A stretch of DNA of 52,936 nt, taken from sequence record MT764207.1; one strand, 5' to 3'. Shown one piece after another: positions 26,516-52,175 of this stretch (the stretch's first letter is position 1; the number at the start of each line of letters is the position of its first letter). A model generated the notes under the pieces. It had not been told where the DNA came from, did not search any database, and saw nothing but the letters and a program-made list of their open reading frames with translations. This DNA is from Escherichia phage JEP7. A program made the position numbers and the translations under genes.

Positions 26516-28483
26516 TTAGTGCGCCTCTGCCCAGTTACTTTCTATCTTAGCATCAGTAAGAACAGGTACACGAAGCGGTAGCACAGTTTCCATGACCCGT
26601 ACGAAATCGTAGAATCCATCTTCTGCTTGCTTACCAGTTGGTAGAGAGAAGTTAAGCTCATCGTGTACCGTCAGGCGAGGCACGCCAATCACGTCGAAGT
26701 AACCGTCTTCATACCCTTTCAGCATTGCAGACTTCATCTGGTCTGCTGACGACCCTTGCAGCACTCGGTTGATTGCTTTGTGGGTGTCTGCCAGTTTAAT
26801 GTTTGGGCCATACTCCTGACGTGCTTCTTCAAATGGCAAAGGCGTCTTCCCGAATCCACCACGTTTTGGGACCCATTTGTTGAACCACGTTTTCCGGCCC
26901 ATAAAGGTTTCTACATACCCCTGGCTATAACATAAATCTTCATAATGCTTCATGGTAGCACCAATGAATGGTGCACCCTGATGGTACGCCTTCAGAACAG
27001 GTTCTGCTTCTTCAGGTGTCATTGCTAACTTACGGGCAAGAGCATTAAGCATCATGCCGTACAACAAACCAAAGTTGATGGTCTTAGCCGGTTTACGCTC
27101 TATAACGTGACCTGAGGCTTCCTTGATAATATCGACCATAACATTGTGGTAATCTGCTTCCGGGTTAGCCGCGAAAATTGCTCGTAACTCATCAGCGCCC
27201 GGGCCGACTGCAAAATGCGCCATGAATCTATATTCAATTTGGGCGTAGTCTGCGGATCCCCATCGGTGTCCGACATCCGGTACGAAACAAGCACGAAGGA
27301 GTGGTCCCAGTATTTTGTGTCTAGACGGTATATTCTGCAGATTAGGGTCAGATGAGCTAAACCGACCACTAACGGTTCCACCGTCATCACCGCGCATTTG
27401 ATGGAATTGACCGTGAAGGAAGCCATTTGTATTCATCCCCAATATATAGCCACGAATAAACGTGGACTGGATTTTTTCATAAGACTTAATCTCAGACACC
27501 AGTTCCGCAAACGGATGGTGCAAGCCTGCTAAGAAGTCCGCTGTAAACGACGGATTACCCGCCGCTGTTTTGAAGTACTCCAGACCTAAATGGTCAAATG
27601 CAAGTGCTAAATCAGGACCGGAGTTAACGTTAATGTTAAAGCCAATCTGGTCTTTAATCTGCTGGTGCATTTTCCTTATTTCAGCGCTAAGCGTATCATC
27701 CGCCTCTTTGGCTTTGTCAAGGTCAACACGCACACCTGCAAAACGCATCTTAAGCATTAATGGAATGAGCTTGCACTCCATATAGAATACGTCTGTTAAA
27801 CACCAGCGACTTAACAAAGGCCACTGGGCTTTGATAATGTGTATTGGTAAGTCGGCGTCAGATTCAGCGTAGTAACCCACAAGACGAGGAGGTGTTTTGT
27901 AGATGTACTTTCTGGCTTCACCTGTTGGCTTACAACCATAAGCATCTGAAATCCATTGGTACATCTCAGCTGAGTCTTTACCTTCGCCTACATACTTTCG
28001 TCCAAGTCCTTCAAGTGCAACACGCGCGCCTGGGTCGAGTAATGCTTCCGCGAATTGTACATCCATGCACAATCCTTTGACTTCCACGCCTTCTGCTGCA
28101 AGCCAGCCCAAGTCATATGTGATGTTAGCACCGACTTTAACTTGGTTAGGTCGCGAGAGTTCGAGCCGAAGCCAACCAAGTACTTCCTCAGCTGGAAGGT
28201 TATCCTCTTCGCCGAGCTCGTGTCTGATTGGGTAGTAAGCCTTGAAGCCATTGTCCGTAGCGATACTAACTCCAACGATATGACCTTCCCTCCTGGCCCA
28301 ACCACTACCATTTGCATCCATCCCTGGGTCATATGTTTCACAGTCAAGACCGATAATCTTCGCAGAAGACAAATCCGGGTAATGCGCGCGCGGCCGCCAT
28401 CCAGTATCCCTGACGTATGGTATAGGACGGTTGATAGGTTTAACATTCTTTGCACCTTCAAAGCTATCGAATAAAAAGCTCAT
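26516..28483 (-). CDS. DNA polymerase, family A (PolI-like) with 3'-5' exonuclease domain
   Basis: 655 aa; polymerase motif A (DYAQIEYR), motif B (KTINFGLLYGM), motif C (TVHDELNF); N-terminal exonuclease-like region (GLDCETYD). Confidence 0.9.
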   Translation of the reverse strand: MSFLFDSFEGAKNVKPINRPIPYVRDTGWRPRAHYPDLSSAKIIGLDCETYDPGMDANGSGWARREGHIVGVSIATDNGFKAYYPIRHELGEEDNLPAEEVLGWLRLELSRPNQVKVGANITYDLGWLAAEGVEVKGLCMDVQFAEALLDPGARVALEGLGRKYVGEGKDSAEMYQWISDAYGCKPTGEARKYIYKTPPRLVGYYAESDADLPIHIIKAQWPLLSRWCLTDVFYMECKLIPLMLKMRFAGVRVDLDKAKEADDTLSAEIRKMHQQIKDQIGFNINVNSGPDLALAFDHLGLEYFKTAAGNPSFTADFLAGLHHPFAELVSEIKSYEKIQSTFIRGYILGMNTNGFLHGQFHQMRGDDGGTVSGRFSSSDPNLQNIPSRHKILGPLLRACFVPDVGHRWGSADYAQIEYRFMAHFAVGPGADELRAIFAANPEADYHNVMVDIIKEASGHVIERKPAKTINFGLLYGMMLNALARKLAMTPEEAEPVLKAYHQGAPFIGATMKHYEDLCYSQGYVETFMGRKTWFNKWVPKRGGFGKTPLPFEEARQEYGPNIKLADTHKAINRVLQGSSADQMKSAMLKGYEDGYFDVIGVPRLTVHDELNFSLPTGKQAEDGFYDFVRVMETVLPLRVPVLTDAKIESNWAEAH

Positions 28484-29478
28484 CAGTCCCCTCTCACATA
28501 CGCAATTACAACTGTACGAGTTGAGTTTTCCATTTTGAGCGCCTGACTACCAAGCCCTATTCTTTCCATGCCTTTAGCCAGTTTACTCATCTGACTAATA
28601 ACACAGTTGAACGGTTTACTAAACTTAGTCGACTGGAACTTAATGTCGACGGACATCTTAGGAATAATCTTGTCTGGTAAGTCTGCTTTTGCTGTTGACT
28701 CGCCAGTTATCTCCAGAATGGCTTGACCTTCGTCATACCCAGTAAGCTGGTCCATAACTTCCAGGAATTCAGGAGTGATGGCCTGCATATCCATTTCCAT
28801 ATTGAAGAACTTCGATACGTCTGGCCATTTGGCTGCGAGTACCGGAGCATCCATCTGTACGCCATCCGCAAAACCGAAGAACATCTGACCGCGGGTATAT
28901 CCTACGCTTGTGGGTTCCATCTTCAGCTTAACCAGAGCCTCAAGCATTGGTTTGGCTATGGCACATTCAAATTCAAAATCTACATTCAACTTCTCGCGTA
29001 TCATATACTTACCGTTAGTGGCGTAAGCATAACCATCGCGCAGAAGTAAAGATGTTGCCCATACCTGCGGTGCTTCGTTAGGTACCCATTTGGCTAAGGC
29101 AGTTAATACCGGGAGTAATTCGCCATGTGCTGAATACCAGTTGTTAACTGTAGCAAGCGGCGGTATTGGTTCATTAAGCGCTTGCATTCTTGTTTTAAGT
29201 ACACCTGCTGTGACCGTGAGGTTTCCAGCGGCTGTAATGTTAAAAGTAATCTGTTCAGTTCTTGCCGCATTAACGGCCTTACGAAATGATTCAGCATCCA
29301 CTTGCAGGTCTGGAAATCCTTTACATGGCGCTCGTAGTAATACGTTCTTGTAGTATGAATGGATTGTTCCGTCTGCAATCCATATTTTGCCCATAAGACC
29401 ACTATCAGTATACTTGATGGGACGAGCTTGTTGAACGGCAGTCTGTATTTGTTTGGTGTCATAGTTAAACTTGCTCAT
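28483..29478 (-). CDS. hypothetical protein (replication-associated by position)
   Basis: 331 aa ORF between DNA polymerase and ThyA-like gene; no motif recognised. Confidence 0.3.
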   Translation of the reverse strand: MSKFNYDTKQIQTAVQQARPIKYTDSGLMGKIWIADGTIHSYYKNVLLRAPCKGFPDLQVDAESFRKAVNAARTEQITFNITAAGNLTVTAGVLKTRMQALNEPIPPLATVNNWYSAHGELLPVLTALAKWVPNEAPQVWATSLLLRDGYAYATNGKYMIREKLNVDFEFECAIAKPMLEALVKLKMEPTSVGYTRGQMFFGFADGVQMDAPVLAAKWPDVSKFFNMEMDMQAITPEFLEVMDQLTGYDEGQAILEITGESTAKADLPDKIIPKMSVDIKFQSTKFSKPFNCVISQMSKLAKGMERIGLGSQALKMENSTRTVVIAYVRGD

Positions 29479-29508
29479 AGCATAACGGGGCCGAAGCCCC
29501 GCTCCATC

Positions 29509-30393
29509 TTATACGGCCATTTGTAGTTTGATGTTTGGCATTGGTTTGTACTTCTCAACCATTGGCGTAACATCGGCAGGAGTGAAGTCAAACACTGACA
29601 CGTCGTAAATTGCGTTAATGTCAGGACGACCTTCAAAGTTAGTGTCCAGTGTAGTATCAGAATTGCTTACGATACGTTGCAGGAAAATCTTTGCAGCATC
29701 GATATGATTCTGATAGATGTGATAGTCACCCAGCGTAACAGTCATATCACCTACCCCAGTACCCAGCTCAGCAGCAATGGTAATCTGCAGCATTTGATGC
29801 AACAGAATATCGTGAGGCAGACCCAGAATAACATCCGCGCTACGCATGTGGAACATCAGCTCTAATTCATTGCGGTTGTTAATGAACAGCTGAAAACCAT
29901 GGTAACAAGGCGGAAGGGCCATGGCGTCCATCTCTTGTGGGTTCCATGCCGTAATGTATGCCCGGCGGTCAGTAGGCTTAACCTTCAGCGTTTCAATAAC
30001 ATCTTTAAGCTGGTTAGTAAGAACACCATTCTTGTAGAATGGCTTAATCCATTGCACGCCGTACACAGGACCTAAGTCACGGTTGTCTGGCGTACCCCAG
30101 CGTTTGTTTGCGTCCTGCAGGTTACCTTCCCACCAGTTGCAGCCAAAGCCTTTGAGCGTGTCGACGTTTGAAATACCGTTGATAAAGCAGTAAAGCTCAG
30201 CAGCAACAGCTTTGATGTTAACAGGTTTAAACACCGGCACCATCAGTTTGTTGTCGTTAAAAGCCAGCTTAAATGCTGTACCAAAACAACGGCGTGTACC
30301 AACACCTGTACGGTCTACAACATCCTCGCCTTTACGCAGGATAAAAGAAATGATGTCGCTGTAAAGAGAATCGACAGTGCTATATGTTTTCAT
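29509..30393 (-). CDS. thymidylate synthase-fold enzyme with Asn-to-Asp at the pyrimidine specificity position (putative dCMP C5-hydroxymethylase or -methylase)
   Basis: 294 aa; by-eye alignment to E. coli ThyA across DRTGVGT, DLGPVYGVQW, RRAYITAWNP, ALPPC (catalytic Cys163, codon 29905-29907), RSADVILGLPHD, GDYHIYQNH; residue matching ThyA Asn177 is Asp195 (codon 29809-29811). Confidence 0.85.
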   Translation of the reverse strand: MKTYSTVDSLYSDIISFILRKGEDVVDRTGVGTRRCFGTAFKLAFNDNKLMVPVFKPVNIKAVAAELYCFINGISNVDTLKGFGCNWWEGNLQDANKRWGTPDNRDLGPVYGVQWIKPFYKNGVLTNQLKDVIETLKVKPTDRRAYITAWNPQEMDAMALPPCYHGFQLFINNRNELELMFHMRSADVILGLPHDILLHQMLQITIAAELGTGVGDMTVTLGDYHIYQNHIDAAKIFLQRIVSNSDTTLDTNFEGRPDINAIYDVSVFDFTPADVTPMVEKYKPMPNIKLQMAV

Positions 30394-30986
30394 TAAAACA
30401 GTTCCTTTTGAGCCGGGTTAACGTGTGCGTCGATGATGGCCTGGATGTCAGGTGCTTTCCATCCTTCAGGCTTAACAATATCCTGACCAGACTTATGCTT
30501 ACTGTTGCTTGCATCAGGCTTAGCACGTTCTTTCGCCATGTTAGCAACTTGTACCGCATCCCATGCTGCGTCGAGTGGCCAGTTGTTGTTTGCACACCAG
30601 GTAATCAGGTGGATAATTAACTGGGCCAGACGGTCGCAATGAGTGTCTTCAGTATCCTTAACGTATACAATAAGGCCGTCAGCATCGAAGCGGTCCATAA
30701 ATCCGCATGGCGTAGTTAACAGAATCGGATACTCAAATTCGTTGGTGAACCATGCAGTCTGGTCATACAGATATAACGTACCTGCAGCAATGTAAATTAA
30801 ATCTACAATACCGTCTAAGAATCCAGCTTTATCGCCGTCCTTCTTAGCTTGTTTAATTTCTTCCATCTCCTCAATAAGACGGTCATAGCGAAGCTTGAAC
30901 TCAGGTTTACCGCCTTGACTAACAGGCTTGAGGTCAAACTTCTCATGAAAAGCGGTAACGCCTGCAGCAATTTTACTGAATCGCAT
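30393..30986 (-). CDS. MazG-like nucleoside triphosphate pyrophosphohydrolase (putative)
   Basis: 197 aa; acidic helical segment RLIEEMEEIKQAKKDGDKAGFLDGIVDLIYIAAG resembling the EExxE...D metal-binding helices of all-alpha NTP pyrophosphatases; AGGAG RBS. Confidence 0.45.
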   Translation of the reverse strand: MRFSKIAAGVTAFHEKFDLKPVSQGGKPEFKLRYDRLIEEMEEIKQAKKDGDKAGFLDGIVDLIYIAAGTLYLYDQTAWFTNEFEYPILLTTPCGFMDRFDADGLIVYVKDTEDTHCDRLAQLIIHLITWCANNNWPLDAAWDAVQVANMAKERAKPDASNSKHKSGQDIVKPEGWKAPDIQAIIDAHVNPAQKELF

Positions 30987-31371
30987 TTCGTAACTCCTTA
31001 CAAACAGTTTCGATAAACTTACGCTTAATTTCTGTAGACCAGATAATATGACGAGCCTGTTCTAAAGTGTCCCAACGTTCTTTACCCACAGGAAAGGGAA
31101 CAATGAAAAGGCCGGTACGGGATATGCGCTTGATAAACGGGAATTTACAGCGCATGGTTGTTTCAAACTTGATAAAGTTGGTTTGCACTTCGCGTGTAAA
31201 CTTGACCTTATCAAATTCATGTTCAAGAGTTTGAGCAAGGTTGCATACTTCCTGGAAAGAAGATGTGGGTAAATAATCTTCGCGGCCGACGGTGTTCACG
31301 TAGTCGATTTGGCCTTCGAGTCGAAGTATCCAAATCCTGTAATAAGCTTCAGCAACACGTTGTAGGTTCAT
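30973..31371 (-). CDS. hypothetical protein
   Basis: 132 aa; GAGGAGAG RBS; first gene downstream of promoter at 31398-31426. Confidence 0.3.
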   Translation of the reverse strand: MNLQRVAEAYYRIWILRLEGQIDYVNTVGREDYLPTSSFQEVCNLAQTLEHEFDKVKFTREVQTNFIKFETTMRCKFPFIKRISRTGLFIVPFPVGKERWDTLEQARHIIWSTEIKRKFIETVCKELRNAIQ

Positions 31372-31397
31372 TGTATCTCTCCTCTAAAAGATAACTT

Positions 31398-31426
31398 ATT
31401 ATACCACATCACTCTCTAGTGGTAAA
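31398..31426 (-). promoter_or_regulatory. promoter with TTTACC -35 and extended -10 (TGgTATAAT), CCAC/GTGG dyad in spacer
   Basis: minus-strand reading CTTTACCACTAGAGAGTGATGTGGTATAAT; 17-nt spacer. Confidence 0.5.
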
Positions 31427-31453
31427 GCACTTTTTACGCTTCTGGTAAAAATA

Positions 31454-31482
31454 AAAAGGACCAGCGTTAACTGGTCCTTTTG
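31454..31482 (-). terminator. rho-independent terminator (minus-strand orientation)
   Basis: GGACCAG-CGTTAA-CTGGTCC stem-loop with A-run on + strand, i.e. hairpin followed by TTTTTATTTTT on the minus strand. Confidence 0.6.
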
Positions 31483-32047
31483 GCAGGGTGGCGTAAGGAG
31501 ATACAAGGCATCATAACTATGCAACCAGGCAGCGCATATGAGATTGGCCAAAAGATTTACCATTTTAATCCCCGCGACGAGACGAAAGGAGGTGCCATCA
31601 AGTAGCCAATCACATATGCGTTACTTGCTGTGTGCTCTCACCGCGGAAAGTATAGAGCGTTGCACTTATCACACCGATGGAGTGGCAAAAGCACACAGCA
31701 AGTACAACCTTAGTTGTGGTGTCTTAGCACCTGAGTTATTGTGGATAACCTGCACCCGACGGGTGTCAAAAAGATACGCCAAAACACCACAACTAAAATT
31801 GTGACCGCCGTCTACACCAGGCGCCTGGGGTCAAGGTAGCGAGCCAATACCCTTTTCAGCGTCGGAGGAATCGAACCTCACACATCACGGCTTTTACCAA
31901 ATCTCGGTCAGCGAGCAGAATTGAACTGCATTCACTGGACACCCTCACTGTTTCAACACACCAGGCTTAATTGATTGTTGATAAGAAGAGAGATGTAAGG
32001 ATGTCCATTGAATGCACCTCCGTAGAGGTGCGTTCAGATCAGCGCTA
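31483..32047 (-). ncRNA. candidate structured non-coding RNA / long 3' UTR
   Basis: about 570 nt without a credible ORF between the stop of 32048-32515 and the terminator; contains nested inverted repeats (CTTAGTTGTGGTGT ... ACACCACAACTAA enclosing CACCC-GAC-GGGTG), a 12-bp palindrome CCAGGCGCCTGG and a tRNA T-arm-like GAGGTTCGATTCCTC on the minus strand. Confidence 0.3.
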
Positions 32048-34558: not shown

Positions 34559-35437
34559 TTATTTTAAGGAAAGTTTAACGGGCTTCTCATCCTGCGGGAA
34601 GACATCAGCAGGGCGATAATCATCACAAGCTGCTAATTGCTCTTCGAGTGTTTCGAGTTCTTTCTGGTGCTTGTTGCAGTACCACACTTTGCCCTGGAGC
34701 GGTTTACTGTAATGGCAGGTTCTGCAGTTCCTGTCTGGCATTGCTCCTTTGTGGCACAGGTGATGGTATTCGCACATCCCTGGTTTGCACTCCCACCAAA
34801 TAGGCGATTCAGAAATCTTCGGCATATCCAAACCAGATTCCGCATATACAACAGCCTCCGCTTTACTCAGTTGTATGTCGCTTTCCAGTAAGTCAATCTC
34901 GACCACCTCAAAATACATCTCGTCGGTGTTCTTGTTGATTGCGATGTACACAGCTTGATTCAGCTTAAGCTTCCGCATGTATACCTGCATCTGGGCATAG
35001 TGTACCGGCTTACTTGCTTTAACAGACTTGAGCTTGACTAACTCTTTAAACGACTTATCGCCATGCGTCTTGAATTCAGCAAGTGCCCATACGCCTTTGT
35101 ATTTAATTACACAGTCACAAGACCCAGAGAAGATGTCATTGAATTCGTGTATGCGCCATTGCTTACCAGTCTTGGGATTGACGTCCAGCACCTCATCACA
35201 TACGGAACGAAGCCACTTTACAATTCTGCTTTCTTCAAGGTTACCTCGCTCAAACAGACGAAGTTGCTTAGCTGTAAACTTCTCCTTGAACGACCAGTGC
35301 AGAACGTGCCAAAGATAGCGATAGCAGTTGTGCCCTATCTGCGATGCTCCAAGATGCCCGCGTCGTTCTTCTCTTTCGTGGGCTTCGACTATCTTGATGT
35401 CAATACGTTTCTGCAGGTCGTCAAACGGACTTGGCAT
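34559..35437 (-). CDS. PD-(D/E)XK exonuclease (Cas4/RecB-nuclease-like) with C-terminal Cys cluster
   Basis: ATG 35437 with GAGGAG RBS; D...EFK motif (DCVIKYKGVWALAEFKTHGD); C-terminal CKPGMC...C..C....C cysteine cluster. Confidence 0.5.
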   Translation of the reverse strand: MPSPFDDLQKRIDIKIVEAHEREERRGHLGASQIGHNCYRYLWHVLHWSFKEKFTAKQLRLFERGNLEESRIVKWLRSVCDEVLDVNPKTGKQWRIHEFNDIFSGSCDCVIKYKGVWALAEFKTHGDKSFKELVKLKSVKASKPVHYAQMQVYMRKLKLNQAVYIAINKNTDEMYFEVVEIDLLESDIQLSKAEAVVYAESGLDMPKISESPIWWECKPGMCEYHHLCHKGAMPDRNCRTCHYSKPLQGKVWYCNKHQKELETLEEQLAACDDYRPADVFPQDEKPVKLSLK

Positions 35438-35906
35438 TGTTAAACTCCTCAACGCTGAATTCATCGTACACAATATTATGAGCCCACAAATGAGCGACGG
35501 CGTTTGCCATACTGTCTTTCCATTTGGATTGTGAAGCTGTATGAGCCAATGCAACTACACGAACCAGGTTAAGGTTGGCTATCAGCATATCTGCACAATG
35601 TTCGCACGGCGGGTAGGTTATGTAGATGGTAACCGGGCCTAAAGAAGGAGTGTCTAACTCACTCCTTATATTAGCTAAGGTATTTATCTCGCTATGAATA
35701 GTTAGAGCGTTCTTGAGGCTATTAGGCACTATTCTTATAGAGTCTAGCTGCGTAGGTAAGCCGTTATATCCAGTGGAAATAATACGCTTGTTCTGGTCCA
35801 CAAGAACACTACCGACTTGACGTTTCGGGTCCTTTGACCAGCTTGCAACTTCACAAGCTATGCGCATAAACCGCTTGTCCCACTTGTCCATCTTCTTCTT
35901 TTGCAT
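35421..35906 (-). CDS. dCMP deaminase (cytidine/deoxycytidylate deaminase family)
   Basis: 161 aa; zinc-binding motifs HSEINT and PCEHC. Confidence 0.85.
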   Translation of the reverse strand: MQKKKMDKWDKRFMRIACEVASWSKDPKRQVGSVLVDQNKRIISTGYNGLPTQLDSIRIVPNSLKNALTIHSEINTLANIRSELDTPSLGPVTIYITYPPCEHCADMLIANLNLVRVVALAHTASQSKWKDSMANAVAHLWAHNIVYDEFSVEEFNNAKSV

Positions 35907-49319: not shown

Positions 49320-49805
49320 ATGAAAATTGTTCAATTAGAGCCATATCCGCCTCAATTGGCTATCGTTTGCAGCGAAAAAGAGCACGAAGAGCTCCAAAAA
49401 CTGATGGATTTGCCTGATTTTGGCAACTGGAATGACCGAGAAACGCGTACTGCATCTACCTTTACGTTCTCTCGCGTTAACTATCCGTACCTGTTAATCG
49501 TCGTCGAGCTGTACCACCCGGACGACCTGAAGTACAACACCATTTCCCACGAAGGCATTCACGTAATGTCGTCGCTGATGAACTATGTCGGCCTTAAATA
49601 CGACCCAGAAAACGATGAATGGTACGCATATCAGCATGATTTCATCGTAAATGCCATTTGTAAGGCCCATGACGAGTACATTGAGCGCCAAAAAACGCCA
49701 AAAACTAAGCCAAAAATCGAAACAGGCAACCATCCTGTGATACTGCCACAAGACGTTATGAACTCGCTTTTGACTGACACTACTGGGGACTTTTTAGGTG
49801 ATTGA
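49320..49805 (+). CDS. HExxH-motif protein (putative zinc metallopeptidase-like)
   Basis: about 161 aa from ATG 49320 (track starts at a GTG at 49308); HEGIH motif (NTISHEGIHVMSSLM). Confidence 0.3.
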   Translation: MKIVQLEPYPPQLAIVCSEKEHEELQKLMDLPDFGNWNDRETRTASTFTFSRVNYPYLLIVVELYHPDDLKYNTISHEGIHVMSSLMNYVGLKYDPENDEWYAYQHDFIVNAICKAHDEYIERQKTPKTKPKIETGNHPVILPQDVMNSLLTDTTGDFLGD

Positions 49806-50307
49806 AATACTCCGTAAGTATTTTCGCTATGAGCCAGACACAGGCTTATTGTACAGAATACGACAGGCTAAAACAGGTAAACGAGTCGATTTGAGCCAGC
49901 CTGTAGGCACGGAACATAGCGGTTATCTGTTTTGCAGTGTACCAGAAGGCATTCGTACAAAGCCTGTGCACGTAATCTGCTATGCTTTACAAACTGGCGA
50001 ACTACCTGAAGTAGTTGACCATAAAGATGGTAACGGGCTTAACAACAAATGGTACAACCTTCGTAACGGTACTCAAACGCAGAACCGGTATAACTCAAAA
50101 GTCAAATCAAGTAACACAACAGGCGTAAAAGGCTTGTTTGAGTACGCACCAAAAGGTCGTAAACCTCTTTGGAAAGCCAGCATTAAAGTAGATGGAGTCA
50201 ATCATCAGAAGTATTTCCCTTATACTGATAACGGTAGGCTGGAAGCTATTGAGTGGCTTGACGAACAAAGACATCAACATGGCGAATTCGCCAACAAAGG
50301 AAATTAA
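49798..50307 (+). CDS. HNH homing endonuclease with AP2-like DNA-binding domain
   Basis: 169 aa; HNH core VVDHKDGNGLNNKWYNLRNGTQTQN; C-terminal GVKGLFEYAPKGRKPLWKASIKVDGVNHQKYFPYTDNGRLEAIEW resembles AP2 domain. Confidence 0.75.
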   Translation: MIEILRKYFRYEPDTGLLYRIRQAKTGKRVDLSQPVGTEHSGYLFCSVPEGIRTKPVHVICYALQTGELPEVVDHKDGNGLNNKWYNLRNGTQTQNRYNSKVKSSNTTGVKGLFEYAPKGRKPLWKASIKVDGVNHQKYFPYTDNGRLEAIEWLDEQRHQHGEFANKGN

Positions 50308-50308
50308 T

Positions 50309-50983
50309 GTGATAAACCTAATCTTCGCAATGGGCCAAAATGGGGAATTCGGGTTATCTCCGGAGTTTATGAAGCATCAGGTTGACTCGTGCAAGACCAT
50401 GGAAGAGGTTCGTGCGCTTCCTAAGTCTGGTCTGCCCTGGAAATGTCCGTCAGACATGCTCTTTTTCAGGACTATGACTAATTCAGTTGCGACAGAACCA
50501 GGCTATAATGCGTATCAGCAACTACGTGGACAGTTCCCAAGTGACCAGTTGCGAAACATGATAGCAGATGTAACGGTAAAAATGGTCGGACATAGTGTAC
50601 TGTTAGCCGGTCGTAACACGTATATGACTATGAGTCTGCCTATGTCAGCCCACAGAATACTGCTGCCGGTATCTCGCCAGATTATGGCTTCAGAAGGCTA
50701 CAATAATTTGGGTGAGATGGCAGCAGACCTTGAATCCAGAGGTACTGACGTCTGGATTGTAGGCGGTGCCGAGTTGATACTTTCGGCCCTTGAAGAGCAT
50801 GCAAAAGACTTACTCCGTATCGACAACATGTTTATCAGTACGATCAAGCAATCAGGTCCAAGTGATATTTTAATGGATCGTAGCAAATTAATGATGTACA
50901 TTGATAGCGACTTCACTTATAATGATGAATATGTTGATAACAAACAAGTTCTGATACAACGGTACAGGAGTTTACACGAATGA
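50309..50983 (+). CDS. dihydrofolate reductase
   Basis: GTG 50309 with AAAGGA RBS (in-frame ATG also at 50279); DHFR-like order of motifs: INLIFAMGQNGEFG, LPW, DMLFF, VLLAGRNTY, VWIVGGAELI. Confidence 0.75.
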   Translation: MINLIFAMGQNGEFGLSPEFMKHQVDSCKTMEEVRALPKSGLPWKCPSDMLFFRTMTNSVATEPGYNAYQQLRGQFPSDQLRNMIADVTVKMVGHSVLLAGRNTYMTMSLPMSAHRILLPVSRQIMASEGYNNLGEMAADLESRGTDVWIVGGAELILSALEEHAKDLLRIDNMFISTIKQSGPSDILMDRSKLMMYIDSDFTYNDEYVDNKQVLIQRYRSLHE

Positions 50984-51486
50984 ACATCATAATCGAGGGT
51001 CCCGATAATGCTGGTAAAAGTACACTTATTGAGTTCCTTAAATCTCATACTGGCCGCAATGTTATTCATAATACTGTTGATAAAGACCCCGAATCGGTCA
51101 TGGCTAAACAGGCCAAAGAAAACGCGTTGGAAGGCAATTGCATTTATGACCGTAGCGCTGTTATATCTGAGTATATCTATTGTCTGGTTCTTCAACGTAC
51201 GCCTGTCATCAATATTAATGTATCACATGTAGCAGATATGTGTGACAACGCCATCGTTATCTTTTGTATGCCGCCTGTTGAAAAGGTACTGGCAACTACA
51301 AAAGACGAAATGCCTGGTGTTGTGGAAAATCTTGAGGCGTTATACAATCAGTATGACAACCTCATTGACGAGCTGGTTATGATGAGTAAGCAGTTCTTCA
51401 TTTACGACTGGACTGTTGAAGAAGACGGTCCTGAAGCAGTTCTCGAATACATCAACGAACGTATTAATAAGGAGTGGAACAAATGA
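50980..51486 (+). CDS. P-loop deoxynucleoside monophosphate kinase (thymidylate-kinase-like)
   Basis: 168 aa; N-terminal Walker A IIIEGPDNAGKST; CAGGAG RBS; adjacent to DHFR. Confidence 0.55.
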   Translation: MNIIIEGPDNAGKSTLIEFLKSHTGRNVIHNTVDKDPESVMAKQAKENALEGNCIYDRSAVISEYIYCLVLQRTPVININVSHVADMCDNAIVIFCMPPVEKVLATTKDEMPGVVENLEALYNQYDNLIDELVMMSKQFFIYDWTVEEDGPEAVLEYINERINKEWNK

Positions 51487-52175
51487 GCCCAGTATACAAT
51501 AGCACAGTCACGCTGTCAGCAACCGTAGGAGACGTCAACAAGACTGTTACTGTGGGTTCAACTAACCCGAACCTGTCAGGTGACGACCTGCTGCGCCTGG
51601 CCAAACGTGCTCTTGAAGATAACGAAGTGACTGGTACTGAAGGCGTCAGCATTGAAATTAACGTCGAAGGATGTCCACACAGCATCAGTATTGCGACTTC
51701 TGGCGATGAAATTGAAAAGTTCAACGATGAGCTGGAATATCGTACTGGTGAGATGTTCAGCAGTGCTCTAAACTGGTACTTGTGCAAGGCCTCAAACTAC
51801 GCTGGCGCTCCTATGTCAGACCGTATGTTAGCTGATATGTCAGCTCGCGAAATTGCTAAAGGCTGGGCGCATGTACAGATGCTGCAGGAGCATATCTGCA
51901 AGCTGGAAAGCTGCAATAAAGATGCGTCTGAGCTTATCACTGCCTATAAACGGCAGATTACCGACCTGCAGCAACTGATGGGCAAGCGTGCTGAAGAATA
52001 TGAGGCTGAGATTCGTAGCCTTAACGGTACAGCTGTTGCTAATAACCGTGCTTTCAGCGAAGAGCGTAAAGCGCTTATTGCCCAGCGTGACGCTGAAAAA
52101 CGTCGTGCAGACGACCTGGCAGATCGTCTCAACTTTATCCGTAAGCATATGGATGCTATGGAAGGGGTAATCTGA
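51483..52175 (+). CDS. hypothetical protein
   Basis: 230 aa from ATG 51483 (overlaps kinase stop, GGAGTGG RBS); C-terminal coiled coil. Confidence 0.3.
   Translation: MSPVYNSTVTLSATVGDVNKTVTVGSTNPNLSGDDLLRLAKRALEDNEVTGTEGVSIEINVEGCPHSISIATSGDEIEKFNDELEYRTGEMFSSALNWYLCKASNYAGAPMSDRMLADMSAREIAKGWAHVQMLQEHICKLESCNKDASELITAYKRQITDLQQLMGKRAEEYEAEIRSLNGTAVANNRAFSEERKALIAQRDAEKRRADDLADRLNFIRKHMDAMEGVI

What the first reader, a model, noticed from the sequence alone, without database searches (positions are those of the whole stretch)
29509..30393. Thymidylate-synthase homolog carries Asp at the uracil/cytosine specificity position: candidate dCMP C5-hydroxymethylase or -methylase
The protein aligns by eye with E. 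coli ThyA through the conserved blocks and keeps the catalytic Cys (Cys163, codon 29905-29907). Where ThyA has LGLPFN (Asn177) it has LGLPHD: Asp195 is encoded by GAT at 29809-29811 on the minus strand. In thymidylate synthase this Asn specifies dUMP; T4 dCMP hydroxymethylase has Asp at the equivalent position, and an Asn-to-Asp change switches thymidylate synthase toward dCMP. The enzyme therefore probably modifies dCMP at C5, implying modified cytosine in the virion DNA. Which modification (5-hydroxymethyl or 5-methyl) cannot be read from sequence.
Basis: partly seen in the sequence, partly recalled or inferred. Interest (0 to 1): 0.78.

Follow-up and report, generated by a model that had tools for sequence, protein, structure and literature searches.

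The report
Phage enzyme that likely methylates dCMP
This Salmonella/E. coli phage's only "thymidylate synthase" has the active-site changes that switch the enzyme from uracil to cytosine, so the phage probably fills its DNA with 5-methylcytosine, a known anti-restriction trick (phage XP12) not yet reported for this much-used phage group.

Summary
ORF 29509-30393 (-) is a 294-aa thymidylate-synthase homolog (Pfam E=2e-62) with Cys163 (TGT) and Asp195 (GAT) at the stated codons. Three independent alignments put Asp195 at E. coli ThyA Asn177.

The window is a whole Rosemountvirus genome (phage vB_EcoM_PiR). A distinct clade of 31 homologs from about 45-54 kb phage contigs carries an invariant signature (H147Y, Q165M, F176H) and N177D in 29 of 31. 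All 89 canonical relatives keep H/Q/F/N.

The rest of the catalytic apparatus is canonical: L143, D169, the C-terminal Val, and a phage DHFR. Published rules therefore favour reductive methylation (5-methyl-dCMP) over 5-hydroxymethyl or 5-hydroxy products.

It is the only TS homolog in the genome. A dimeric-d(C/U)TPase-like pyrophosphatase, a dCMP-family deaminase and a P-loop kinase accompany it. XP12, the archetypal 5mC phage, has homologs of the TS, pyrophosphatase, deaminase and DHFR.

DNA of relative S144 (identical active-site strings) resists all C/G-containing restriction enzymes tested, which its authors could not explain.

No base-composition data exist for these phages. Verdict: interpretation supported and sharpened to a probable dCMP methylase. 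This is a new member of a known kind, of moderate interest.

The parts
29509..30393 (-). Thymidylate-synthase homolog, 294 aa; predicted dCMP C5-methyltransferase (5-methyl-dCMP synthase). It is the only TS homolog in the genome.
   Evidence: ORF; Pfam PF00303 E=2.3e-62; PDB phmmer; AF2 pLDDT 94 with TS fold; tblastn with four TS-family queries finds no second copy.
29809..29811 (-). GAT codon for Asp195, at the position of E. coli ThyA Asn177 (pyrimidine specificity).
29905..29907 (-). TGT codon for catalytic Cys163 (= ThyA Cys146).
29902..29904 (-). TAC codon for Tyr164 (= ThyA His147). It is Tyr in 31/31 clade members and His in 89/89 canonical hits. Position 147 is the second most discriminating position between modified and unmodified contigs in PMC8670742.
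29845..29847 (-). ATG codon for Met183 (= ThyA Gln165, partner of Asn177). It is Met in 31/31 clade members and in T4 gp42, Leu in XP12, and Gln in 89/89 canonical hits.
29812..29814 (-). CAC codon for His194 (= ThyA Phe176). This is a clade-specific change of unknown effect.
29914..29916 (-). CTT codon for Leu160 (= ThyA Leu143). It is retained; hydroxymethylases and 5-hydroxy-dCMP synthases have Asp/Glu here.
29833..29835 (-). GAT codon for Asp187 (= ThyA Asp169). It is retained; 5-hydroxy-dCMP synthases have Asn here.
30393..30986 (-). All-alpha NTP pyrophosphohydrolase, 197 aa. Its stop overlaps the TS start (TAATG). Predicted d(C/U)TPase that supplies dCMP and removes dCTP.
30973..31371 (-). 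132-aa ORF of unknown function, first gene of the same operon.
   Evidence: PHROG 36727, unknown; annotated in relatives.
31398..31481 (-). Terminator-like hairpin (31454-31481) followed by a promoter-like site (31398-31426) in front of the operon ORF132 - pyrophosphatase - TS - clamp - PolA.
   Evidence: consensus scan only
35421..35906 (-). dCMP/cytidine-deaminase-family protein, 161 aa, with HSE and PCEHC zinc motifs. Predicted to deaminate a 5-methyl-dC nucleotide to a dT nucleotide (or dCMP to dUMP).
   Evidence: Pfam dCMP_cyt_deam_1 E=2e-21; 33% identity to the XP12 deaminase, E=4e-23; best PDB hit 7FH4, the PBCV-1 dCMP/dCTP deaminase; conserved in distant relatives.
50309..50983 (+). 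Dihydrofolate reductase, GTG start, 224 aa. It would recycle the DHF produced only by reductive methyl transfer.
   Evidence: Pfam DHFR_1 E=1e-6; PHROG 316 E=1e-25; annotated in SPLA2; start checked.
50980..51486 (+). P-loop nucleoside-monophosphate kinase (thymidylate-kinase-like), 168 aa. Predicted to phosphorylate 5-methyl-dCMP and/or dTMP.
   Evidence: PHROG 761 E=3e-27; weak Pfam dNK/Thymidylate_kin; GPDNAGKST P-loop.
26516..29478 (-). Context: family-A DNA polymerase (26516-28483) and clamp-like processivity factor (28483-29478), directly downstream in the same operon.

Best explanation
The gene encodes a deoxycytidylate C5-methyltransferase (5-methyl-dCMP synthase). It is a thymidylate synthase whose pyrimidine pocket has been re-tuned from uracil to cytosine.

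Proposed mechanism: Cys163 attacks C6 of dCMP. Asp195, with Met183 replacing the Gln that orients Asn177 in ThyA, hydrogen-bonds N3/N4 of cytosine instead of N3-H/O4 of uracil. The methylene of CH2-THF is transferred to C5 and reduced by hydride from the folate, giving 5-methyl-dCMP and dihydrofolate.

Proposed pathway: the adjacent d(C/U)TPase-like pyrophosphatase turns dCTP into dCMP, which supplies substrate and excludes dCTP. The phage kinase and host NDP kinase raise 5-methyl-dCMP to 5-methyl-dCTP. The phage PolA incorporates it, so virion DNA carries 5-methylcytosine in place of most or all cytosine. The phage deaminase converts part of the 5-methyl-dC nucleotide pool to thymidine nucleotides. 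The phage DHFR regenerates THF.

Shown here: the residues, the fold, the single copy, the gene set and its conservation. Inferred: substrate, product, roles of the accessory enzymes, and the composition of virion DNA.
For: 1. Asp195 sits at the ThyA Asn177 position in phmmer and MAFFT alignments. Per the literature quoted, N177D/N229D converts canonical TS into a dCMP methylase.
2. Clade-wide signature: H147Y, Q165M and F176H in 31/31 and N177D in 29/31, against H/Q/F/N in 89/89 canonical hits. Positions 177 and 147 are the two most discriminating positions between modified and unmodified metaviromic contigs. Met165 is shared with T4 gp42.
3. Everything needed for reductive methylation is canonical: E58, W80, Y94, R21/126/127/166, S167, D169, H207, Y209, L143 and the C-terminal Val. 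L143D/E marks hydroxymethylases and D169N marks 5-hydroxy-dCMP synthases. Neither change is present.
4. The phage encodes a DHFR, which is needed only if DHF is produced.
5. There is only one TS homolog in the 52.9-kb genome.
6. Accessory module: a pyrophosphatase with a dimeric-dUTPase fold, a deaminase and a kinase. The XP12 5mC phage has homologous TS (28% identity, Asp), pyrophosphatase (E=8e-11), deaminase (33%) and DHFR side by side. The same domain set (TS, PRA-PH, deaminase, PolA plus exonuclease) typifies cytosine-modified contigs, where 5 of 7 Asp-type TS tested made 5mdC.
7. The synteny is conserved in relatives at 50-55% identity.
8. Relative S144 has an enzyme 73% identical with identical active-site strings. 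Its DNA is cut only by the A/T-only enzymes SspI and PacI and by none of 7 C/G-containing enzymes.
Against: - No nucleoside analysis exists for any Rosemountvirus or Loughboroughvirus in the searched literature.
- The S144 digests cannot tell which base or which C5 group is modified.
- The L143 rule is not absolute. In my alignment the proven methylase of XP12 has Asn, not Leu, in that column, in a gapped region.
- Two of seven Asp-type enzymes tested by others did not give 5mdC.
- RB69-type enzymes show that this fold can do unexpected chemistry.
- The clade-specific H147Y and F176H changes have unknown effects.
- GenBank lists E. coli K-12 hosts (MG1655 for CF2, an UNVERIFIED record; K514 for BEC1-17). 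From my own knowledge, K-12 carries McrBC, which restricts 5mC DNA, so an unknown inhibitor or a different modification would be needed.
- Restriction-site statistics of the genome gave no signal either way.
Confidence: 0.62

Rival explanations
1. It is a dCMP hydroxymethylase (T4 gp42-like). The exocyclic methylene intermediate is hydrated, giving 5-hydroxymethyl-dCMP and THF, and the virion DNA carries 5hmC, possibly further decorated.
For: It shares Asp177 and Met165 with T4 gp42. The S144 restriction resistance fits 5hmC equally well. The pyrophosphatase, kinase and deaminase set also parallels T4 gp56/gp1/cd (for gp56 and gp42; the rest is my knowledge of T4).
Against: Leu143 is retained, whereas gp42 has Asp. 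The full TS C-terminus ending in Val is retained, whereas gp42 ends earlier in the alignment. Identity to gp42 is only 21-24%, against 33-39% to canonical TS. No glycosyltransferase is annotated or detected among the roughly 72 genes. A DHFR is unnecessary for a hydroxymethylase that has no companion TS.
Confidence: 0.12
2. It is an ordinary thymidylate synthase (dUMP to dTMP) that tolerates Asp at the specificity position. The phage DNA is unmodified, or is modified by something else.
For: Every one of 61 GenBank records calls it thymidylate synthase. It exceeds the NCBIfam TIGR03284 cut-off (172 vs 108 bits). Two clade members carry Asn. A deaminase, TS, DHFR and thymidylate kinase also read as a classical dTMP pathway (as argued for S144).
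Against: Asn is invariant in 89/89 canonical hits, and Asp is fixed together with H147Y and Q165M across a clade spanning 50-100% identity. The mutational literature says Asp excludes dUMP and admits dCMP. The protein fails four NCBIfam ThyA equivalog cut-offs by a wide margin, for example 187 vs 327 bits. S144 DNA is clearly modified, and no other candidate gene was found by its authors or here.
Confidence: 0.07
3. It is a dCMP methylase, but the pathway serves mainly as a thymidylate bypass (dCMP to 5-methyl-dC nucleotide to dT nucleotide via the deaminase). Virion DNA would then contain little or only partial 5mC.
For: A deaminase route from 5mdCTP to dTTP is documented for XP12-type phages. 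The phage has no canonical TS of its own.
Against: In XP12 the same pathway goes with complete replacement. A d(C/U)TPase-like enzyme next to the TS suggests active dCTP exclusion. S144 DNA resisted all seven C/G-containing enzymes at every site.
Confidence: 0.1
4. It is a flavin-dependent 5-hydroxy-dCMP synthase of the RB69/DLP3 type.
For: It has Asp at position 177 like those enzymes.
Against: Both diagnostic changes are absent: D169N, which is invariant in all tested 5hodCMP synthases, and L143E. No glycosyltransferase or NDP-sugar genes are present.
Confidence: 0.02

Closest known systems
Xanthomonas phage XP12 deoxycytidylate methyltransferase and its module (Pamexvirus/Bosavirus group: XP12, PaMx74, AXL1)
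   Same: Both are TS-family enzymes with Asp at ThyA position 177 and a hydrophobic residue at 165. Both are accompanied by a homologous all-alpha pyrophosphatase, a dCMP-family deaminase, a DHFR, a family-A polymerase and a Cas4-like nuclease. Close relatives of each have DNA cut only by A/T-only restriction enzymes.
   Different: The TS proteins are only 28% identical. The query clade is closer to cellular ThyA (33-39%) and groups with it, not with XP12, in a simple NJ tree, which suggests an independent Asn-to-Asp switch. Residues 143/147/176 are L/Y/H here against N/P/Y in XP12. The virus type also differs: a 53-kb enterobacterial myovirus against a 64-kb siphovirus of Xanthomonas. The product has been shown experimentally for XP12 but not here.
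Engineered N177D (E. coli) / N229D (L. casei) thymidylate synthase
   Same: Both combine a canonical TS scaffold with Asp at the specificity position. The mutants are reported to methylate dCMP (literature quoted).
   Different: The natural enzyme also carries H147Y, Q165M and F176H, fixed across the clade. These changes are presumably optimising. No kinetics are available.
T4 gp42 dCMP hydroxymethylase
   Same: Both have Asp177, Met165 and the catalytic Cys, and both sit in a pyrimidine-replacement context with a dCTPase-type enzyme, a kinase and a deaminase.
   Different: gp42 has L143D and a shorter C-terminus, and is 21-24% identical. T4 also has a separate td gene and glucosyltransferases, which this phage lacks.
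Canonical ThyA (dUMP to dTMP)
   Same: Best sequence and structure matches, same length class, and all catalytic and folate/phosphate-binding residues conserved except four.
   Different: The four differences are N177D, Q165M, H147Y and F176H, that is, the pyrimidine-recognition network.

Membership tests
Thymidylate synthase / dCMP hydroxymethylase superfamily (PF00303) | Significant match to the family profile over the whole domain | tested here: met
   E=2.3e-62, 211 bits against a 24.3 cut-off, profile positions 3-266 of 266.
Thymidylate synthase / dCMP hydroxymethylase superfamily (PF00303) | Catalytic Cys and phosphate-binding Arg residues; TS fold | tested here: met
   C163, R28, R143/R144 and R184 are aligned with ThyA C146, R21, R126/127 and R166. 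AF2 pLDDT 94 and Foldseek TM about 0.82 to TS.
Canonical thymidylate synthase ThyA (dUMP-specific) | Asn at position 177, with Gln165 and His147 forming the uracil-recognition network | tested here: not met
   The query has Asp195, Met183 and Tyr164, whereas 89/89 canonical hits have N/Q/H.
Canonical thymidylate synthase ThyA (dUMP-specific) | Reaches curated equivalog score cut-offs | tested here: inconclusive
   It passes TIGR03284 (172 vs 108). It fails NF002497 (187 vs 327), NF002496, NF002499 and the other NCBIfam equivalog models.
XP12-type dCMP methyltransferase (5-methyl-dCMP synthase) | Asp at the position of ThyA Asn177 | tested here: met
XP12-type dCMP methyltransferase (5-methyl-dCMP synthase) | Retention of residues for hydride transfer and water exclusion (no L143D/E, no D169N, intact C-terminus) | tested here: met
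   L160, D187 and the C-terminal V294 are retained. Caveat: XP12 itself aligns Asn at position 143.
XP12-type dCMP methyltransferase (5-methyl-dCMP synthase) | Genomic association with a dCMP-family deaminase, pyrophosphatase and DHFR | tested here: met
   The association is conserved in relatives.
XP12-type dCMP methyltransferase (5-methyl-dCMP synthase) | Product is 5-methyl-dCMP, and virion DNA has 5mC replacing C | not testable with these tools
   The only indirect evidence is the restriction resistance of relative S144 DNA.
XP12-type dCMP methyltransferase (5-methyl-dCMP synthase) | Common descent with the XP12 enzyme (same subfamily) | tested here: inconclusive
   Identity is 28%. An NJ tree places the query clade with canonical ThyA and XP12 outside, but without support values and with long branches.
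T4 gp42-type dCMP hydroxymethylase | Acidic residue at ThyA position 143 together with Asp177 | tested here: not met
   Leu160 is present here, whereas gp42 has Asp.
RB69/DLP3-type 5-hydroxy-dCMP synthase | D169N (diagnostic) and L143E | tested here: not met
   Asp187 and Leu160 are present here.
Dimeric all-alpha d(C/U)TPase / MazG-like NTP pyrophosphohydrolases (for the neighbour ORF 30393-30986) | All-alpha fold similar to dimeric dUTPases, and conserved acidic metal-binding residues | tested here: met
   [not shown]

The most novel reading that the evidence does not exclude
The clade is an independent, recent re-invention of a cytosine-specific TS from a canonical ThyA, with its own fixed triad (Tyr147, Met165, His176). 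Its product, or a downstream derivative, may not be plain 5mC. Members are recorded on McrBC-bearing E. coli K-12 hosts. That would require either an unknown C5 modification that escapes type IV restriction or a new anti-McrBC factor among the many unknown early genes.
Probability: 0.12. Interest if true: 0.75.

Novelty: new member of a known kind. Interest (0 to 1): 0.45.

Why it matters
Rosemountviruses and Loughboroughviruses are among the phages most often isolated and proposed for Salmonella and E. coli biocontrol. There are 61 GenBank genomes carrying this gene, and every one labels it "thymidylate synthase".

If their DNA is fully C5-methylated, several things follow:
- It explains the unexplained restriction resistance of S144 DNA.
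- It predicts insensitivity to most type II and type I/III systems.
- It predicts sensitivity to type IV systems (McrBC, Mrr), a possible determinant of their patchy E. coli host range.
- It affects nanopore base-calling, cloning and restriction mapping of these phages.
- As far as I know, it would make them the first enterobacterial phages with XP12-type 5mC replacement, on a TS scaffold that looks independently derived.
- The enzyme and its deaminase could be useful reagents: natural counterparts of N177D TS and of the 5mC-selective deaminases.
- It shows that routine annotation pipelines miss this one-residue functional switch.

Tried and rejected
- Restriction-site statistics. I compared A/T-only with C/G-containing palindromes by Markov O/E. 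The values were 0.92 vs 0.89 for 4-mers and 0.92 vs 0.90 for 6-mers, so there is no discriminating signal.
- I searched supplementary files of the MetaGPA papers for the clade's active-site strings, to see whether a tested enzyme belongs to this clade. No files are held for the preprint, and there were no matches in the eLife supplements.
- I searched Rosemountvirus and Loughboroughvirus papers for restriction or base-composition data. Only the S144 paper has any. The XP12 restriction paper does not name the enzymes used on S144 in its main text.
- I considered the 233-aa ORF after the kinase (51474-52175) as a possible extra modification enzyme, because one homolog is labelled UDP-glucose 4-epimerase. 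I rejected this. It has no Pfam support and a coiled-coil C-terminus, is confined to these genera, and evolves fast.
- I considered guanine (7-deazaguanine) modification as the cause of S144 resistance. No queC/D/E, folE or dpdA-like genes are annotated or detected.
- A second TS or a hidden canonical TS: none was found by tblastn. ThyX was not searched with its own query; it is absent from the PHROG-based annotation of relative SPLA2.
Full report
**Observation**

The minus-strand ORF at 29509-30393 is real and encodes 294 aa. The protein matches Pfam Thymidylat_synt over the whole domain (E=2.3e-62) and solved thymidylate synthases at E about 1e-40.

In the HMMER alignments, 'MRSADVILGLPHDI' pairs with 'QRSADLFLGVPFNI'. 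In MAFFT alignments with E. coli ThyA (fetched from NC_000913), T4 gp42 and the XP12 enzyme, Asp195 shares a column with ThyA Asn177, gp42 Asp and XP12 Asp. An AlphaFold model built on 52 sequences has pLDDT 94. It superposes on dUMP-bound TS structures with TM about 0.82.

**What the window is**

The window is a complete Rosemountvirus genome. It has the length and gene coordinates of Escherichia phage vB_EcoM_PiR (OM313461). In 28000-32000 it is 99.2% identical to that record, with a TS protein that is 100% identical. Forty-four other Salmonella/E. coli phage records carry a 98-100% identical protein, and Loughboroughviruses carry one at 71-74%. All records with annotation call it thymidylate synthase.

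**A distinct clade with a fixed signature**

A search of 5.8 billion proteins gives 31 clusters at 50% identity or more, almost all on 44-54 kb phage contigs. There is then a sharp drop to canonical bacterial ThyA at 37% or less.

I mapped E. coli numbering onto a 124-sequence alignment. Against the 89 canonical hits:
- The clade has H147Y, Q165M and F176H in 31/31, and N177D in 29/31.
- The 89 canonical hits have H, Q, F and N without exception.
- All other catalytic, phosphate-binding and deoxyribose-binding residues are conserved: R21, E58, W80, Y94, R126/127, L143, C146, R166, S167, D169, G173, H207, Y209 and the C-terminal Val.

The change is therefore a concerted remodelling of the pyrimidine-recognition network on an otherwise canonical TS, not a stray substitution. 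Positions 177 and 147 are the two positions that best separated cytosine-modified from unmodified contigs in the MetaGPA study (PMC8670742). Met at 165 is shared with T4 gp42, and XP12 has Leu there.

**Which modification**

Recent literature gives diagnostic residues:
- An acidic residue at L143 marks hydroxymethylases (T4 gp42, MilA).
- D169N marks the flavin-dependent 5-hydroxy-dCMP synthases of RB69/DLP3 type, which also carry L143E.
- Leu143 is thought to exclude water so that the exocyclic methylene is reduced rather than hydrated (PMC13326640).

The query keeps Leu160 and Asp187. It also keeps the full C-terminal segment ending in Val, which gp42 lacks in the alignment. The N177D/N229D mutants of canonical TS are reported to be dCMP methylases (cited), and the query is in effect a natural version of that mutant.

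The phage also encodes a DHFR (GTG 50309-50983). This makes sense only if DHF is produced, that is, for reductive methylation. No glycosyltransferase, sugar-nucleotide enzyme, TET-like dioxygenase or DNA methyltransferase appears among the roughly 72 genes. I therefore favour 5-methyl-dCMP.

Caveats are as follows. XP12's proven methylase aligns Asn, not Leu, at position 143, in a gapped stretch. Two of seven Asp-type enzymes tested by others did not yield 5mdC. The effects of H147Y and F176H are unknown.

**Pathway context**

tblastn with four TS-family queries finds only this one homolog in the genome.

The pyrophosphatase lies immediately upstream, with its stop overlapping the TS start.
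- It is a 197-aa all-alpha pyrophosphohydrolase (Pfam PRA-PH; PHROG 671).
- Acidic residues E39/E40/E43/D58/D62 are invariant.
- From my own knowledge, this dimeric d(C/U)TPase family also includes T4 dCTPase gp56. I could not show that link here, because BLASTP was negative.

The remaining parts are:
- A dCMP-family deaminase with intact zinc motifs at 35421-35906. Its best solved relative is the PBCV-1 dCMP/dCTP deaminase 7FH4, the same structure reported as closest to the 5mC-selective deaminase mSCD-B5.
- A P-loop thymidylate-kinase-like protein following the DHFR.
- A terminator-like hairpin and promoter-like site in front of ORF132 - pyrophosphatase - TS - clamp - PolA (pattern match only).

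The order deaminase ... helicase ... pyrophosphatase - TS - clamp - PolA is conserved in contigs whose TS is only 50-55% identical.

**Comparison with XP12**

XP12, in which 5mC replaces all C, has DHFR, deaminase, TS and a 'HAD hydrolase' side by side. Its proteins compare with the window's as follows:
- XP12's TS has Asp and is 28% identical to the query.
- The deaminases are 33% identical.
- XP12's 'HAD hydrolase' is homologous to the query's pyrophosphatase in both conserved motifs (E=8e-11).
- The DHFRs are weakly similar.

The related phage AXL1 lists the same module plus PolA, a helicase and a Cas4-like nuclease. Its DNA is cut completely only by the A/T-only enzymes; two other enzymes cut it partially.

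The NEB preprint reports several relevant points. TS, PRA-PH, deaminase, DNA_pol_A and its exonuclease are the domains most often found together on cytosine-modified contigs. Five of seven such Asp-type TS made 5mdC in vivo. The linked deaminases make dTTP from 5mdCTP, which removes the need for a second TS. The window fits that template point by point.

**Experimental hint from a relative**

Salmonella phage S144 (Loughboroughvirus) DNA was cut by SspI and PacI. It was cut by none of seven C/G-containing enzymes, whichever host it was grown on. Its authors concluded that cytosine is modified but found no responsible gene (PMC7432712). The S144 TS homolog is 73% identical to the query and has the same MALPPCYHGFQ...FHMRSADVILGLPHDILLHQ strings. 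The present reading supplies the missing gene. Later papers on these genera repeat the thymidylate-synthase label and do not revisit the modification.

**Relationship to known enzymes**

The query clade is closer to cellular ThyA (33-39% identity) than to XP12 (27-28%) or gp42 (21-24%). In a simple NJ tree it groups with canonical ThyA, with XP12 outside. This suggests, but does not prove, an independent Asn-to-Asp switch.

Two clade members from short metagenomic contigs carry Asn while keeping Tyr147/Met165/His176, and they nest inside the Asp-bearing clade. In one of them the upstream pyrophosphatase-like ORF is highly diverged.

**Points against, and what remains unknown**
- There are no chemical data for these phages.
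- GenBank lists K-12 strains as hosts for two members (MG1655 for the UNVERIFIED, mis-classified record CF2; K514 for BEC1-17). From my own knowledge, K-12 McrBC restricts 5mC DNA and 5hmC DNA alike. This does not discriminate between the simple modifications, but it implies either an inhibitor or something other than plain 5mC.
- Genome-wide palindrome statistics are uninformative.

**Verdict**

My estimates are as follows:
- Confidence that the enzyme is cytosine-specific: about 0.85.
- Confidence that the product is methyl and ends up in virion DNA: about 0.62.
- Novelty: a new member of a known kind.
- Interest: moderate. The principle is textbook for specialists, but the phage group is widely used and uniformly mis-annotated, and an unexplained published observation is accounted for.

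Noticed in passing
whole window: GATC is strongly avoided (32 observed vs 158 expected, O/E 0.20), and GATATC occurs once vs 13 expected. Other C/G-containing palindromes are near expectation. Cytosine modification does not explain this. It suggests pressure from a GATC-recognising host system (Dam/MutH or a DpnI/DpnII-type enzyme).
   Followed up: no
L012:584-1462 (P0013) and L013:53-931 (P0020): Two metagenomic members of the query's TS clade have Asn at the specificity position while keeping Tyr147/Met165/His176. They nest inside the Asp-bearing clade in an NJ tree, which looks like a D-to-N reversal. In L012 the upstream pyrophosphatase-like ORF is only 25% identical, and the alignment does not cover the N-terminal EExxE motif.
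   Followed up: partly
window 49798-50307 (+): An HNH endonuclease ORF (Pfam HNH_3, E=1e-9) sits directly in front of the DHFR start (GTG 50309). Relative SPLA2 has no such gene at that place, so it is probably a mobile homing endonuclease insertion.
   Followed up: no
window 51474-52175 (+): A 233-aa ORF follows the kinase. It has a coiled-coil C-terminus, is restricted to Rosemountvirus and Loughboroughvirus, and varies in length (225-242 aa). It is only 86-98% identical among phages whose TS is 98-100% identical, so it evolves fast. The SE4 homolog is labelled 'UDP-glucose 4-epimerase' without any domain support.
   Followed up: partly
window 29478-29508 (-): The 30-nt spacer between the TS stop and the clamp start contains a GC-rich hairpin with a UUCG tetraloop (CGGGGC-UUCG-GCCCCG). 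Fold energy is -19.9 kcal/mol, but z is only -1.8 against shuffles. S144 annotates a promoter in the equivalent spacer.
   Followed up: partly
window 31437-31680: The window differs from the PiR GenBank record at 34 positions within 28000-32000. Of these, 24 cluster in 31437-31680, upstream of the operon's promoter-like site. The TS gene itself is identical.
   Followed up: no
L009 (KY608966.1, Escherichia phage CF2): This 53-kb Rosemountvirus genome is filed in GenBank as UNVERIFIED under Tequatrovirus/Straboviridae, with host E. coli K-12 MG1655. That is a taxonomy error. It is also a host record worth checking, given the expected McrBC sensitivity of 5mC DNA.
   Followed up: no
[not shown]
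   Followed up: yes
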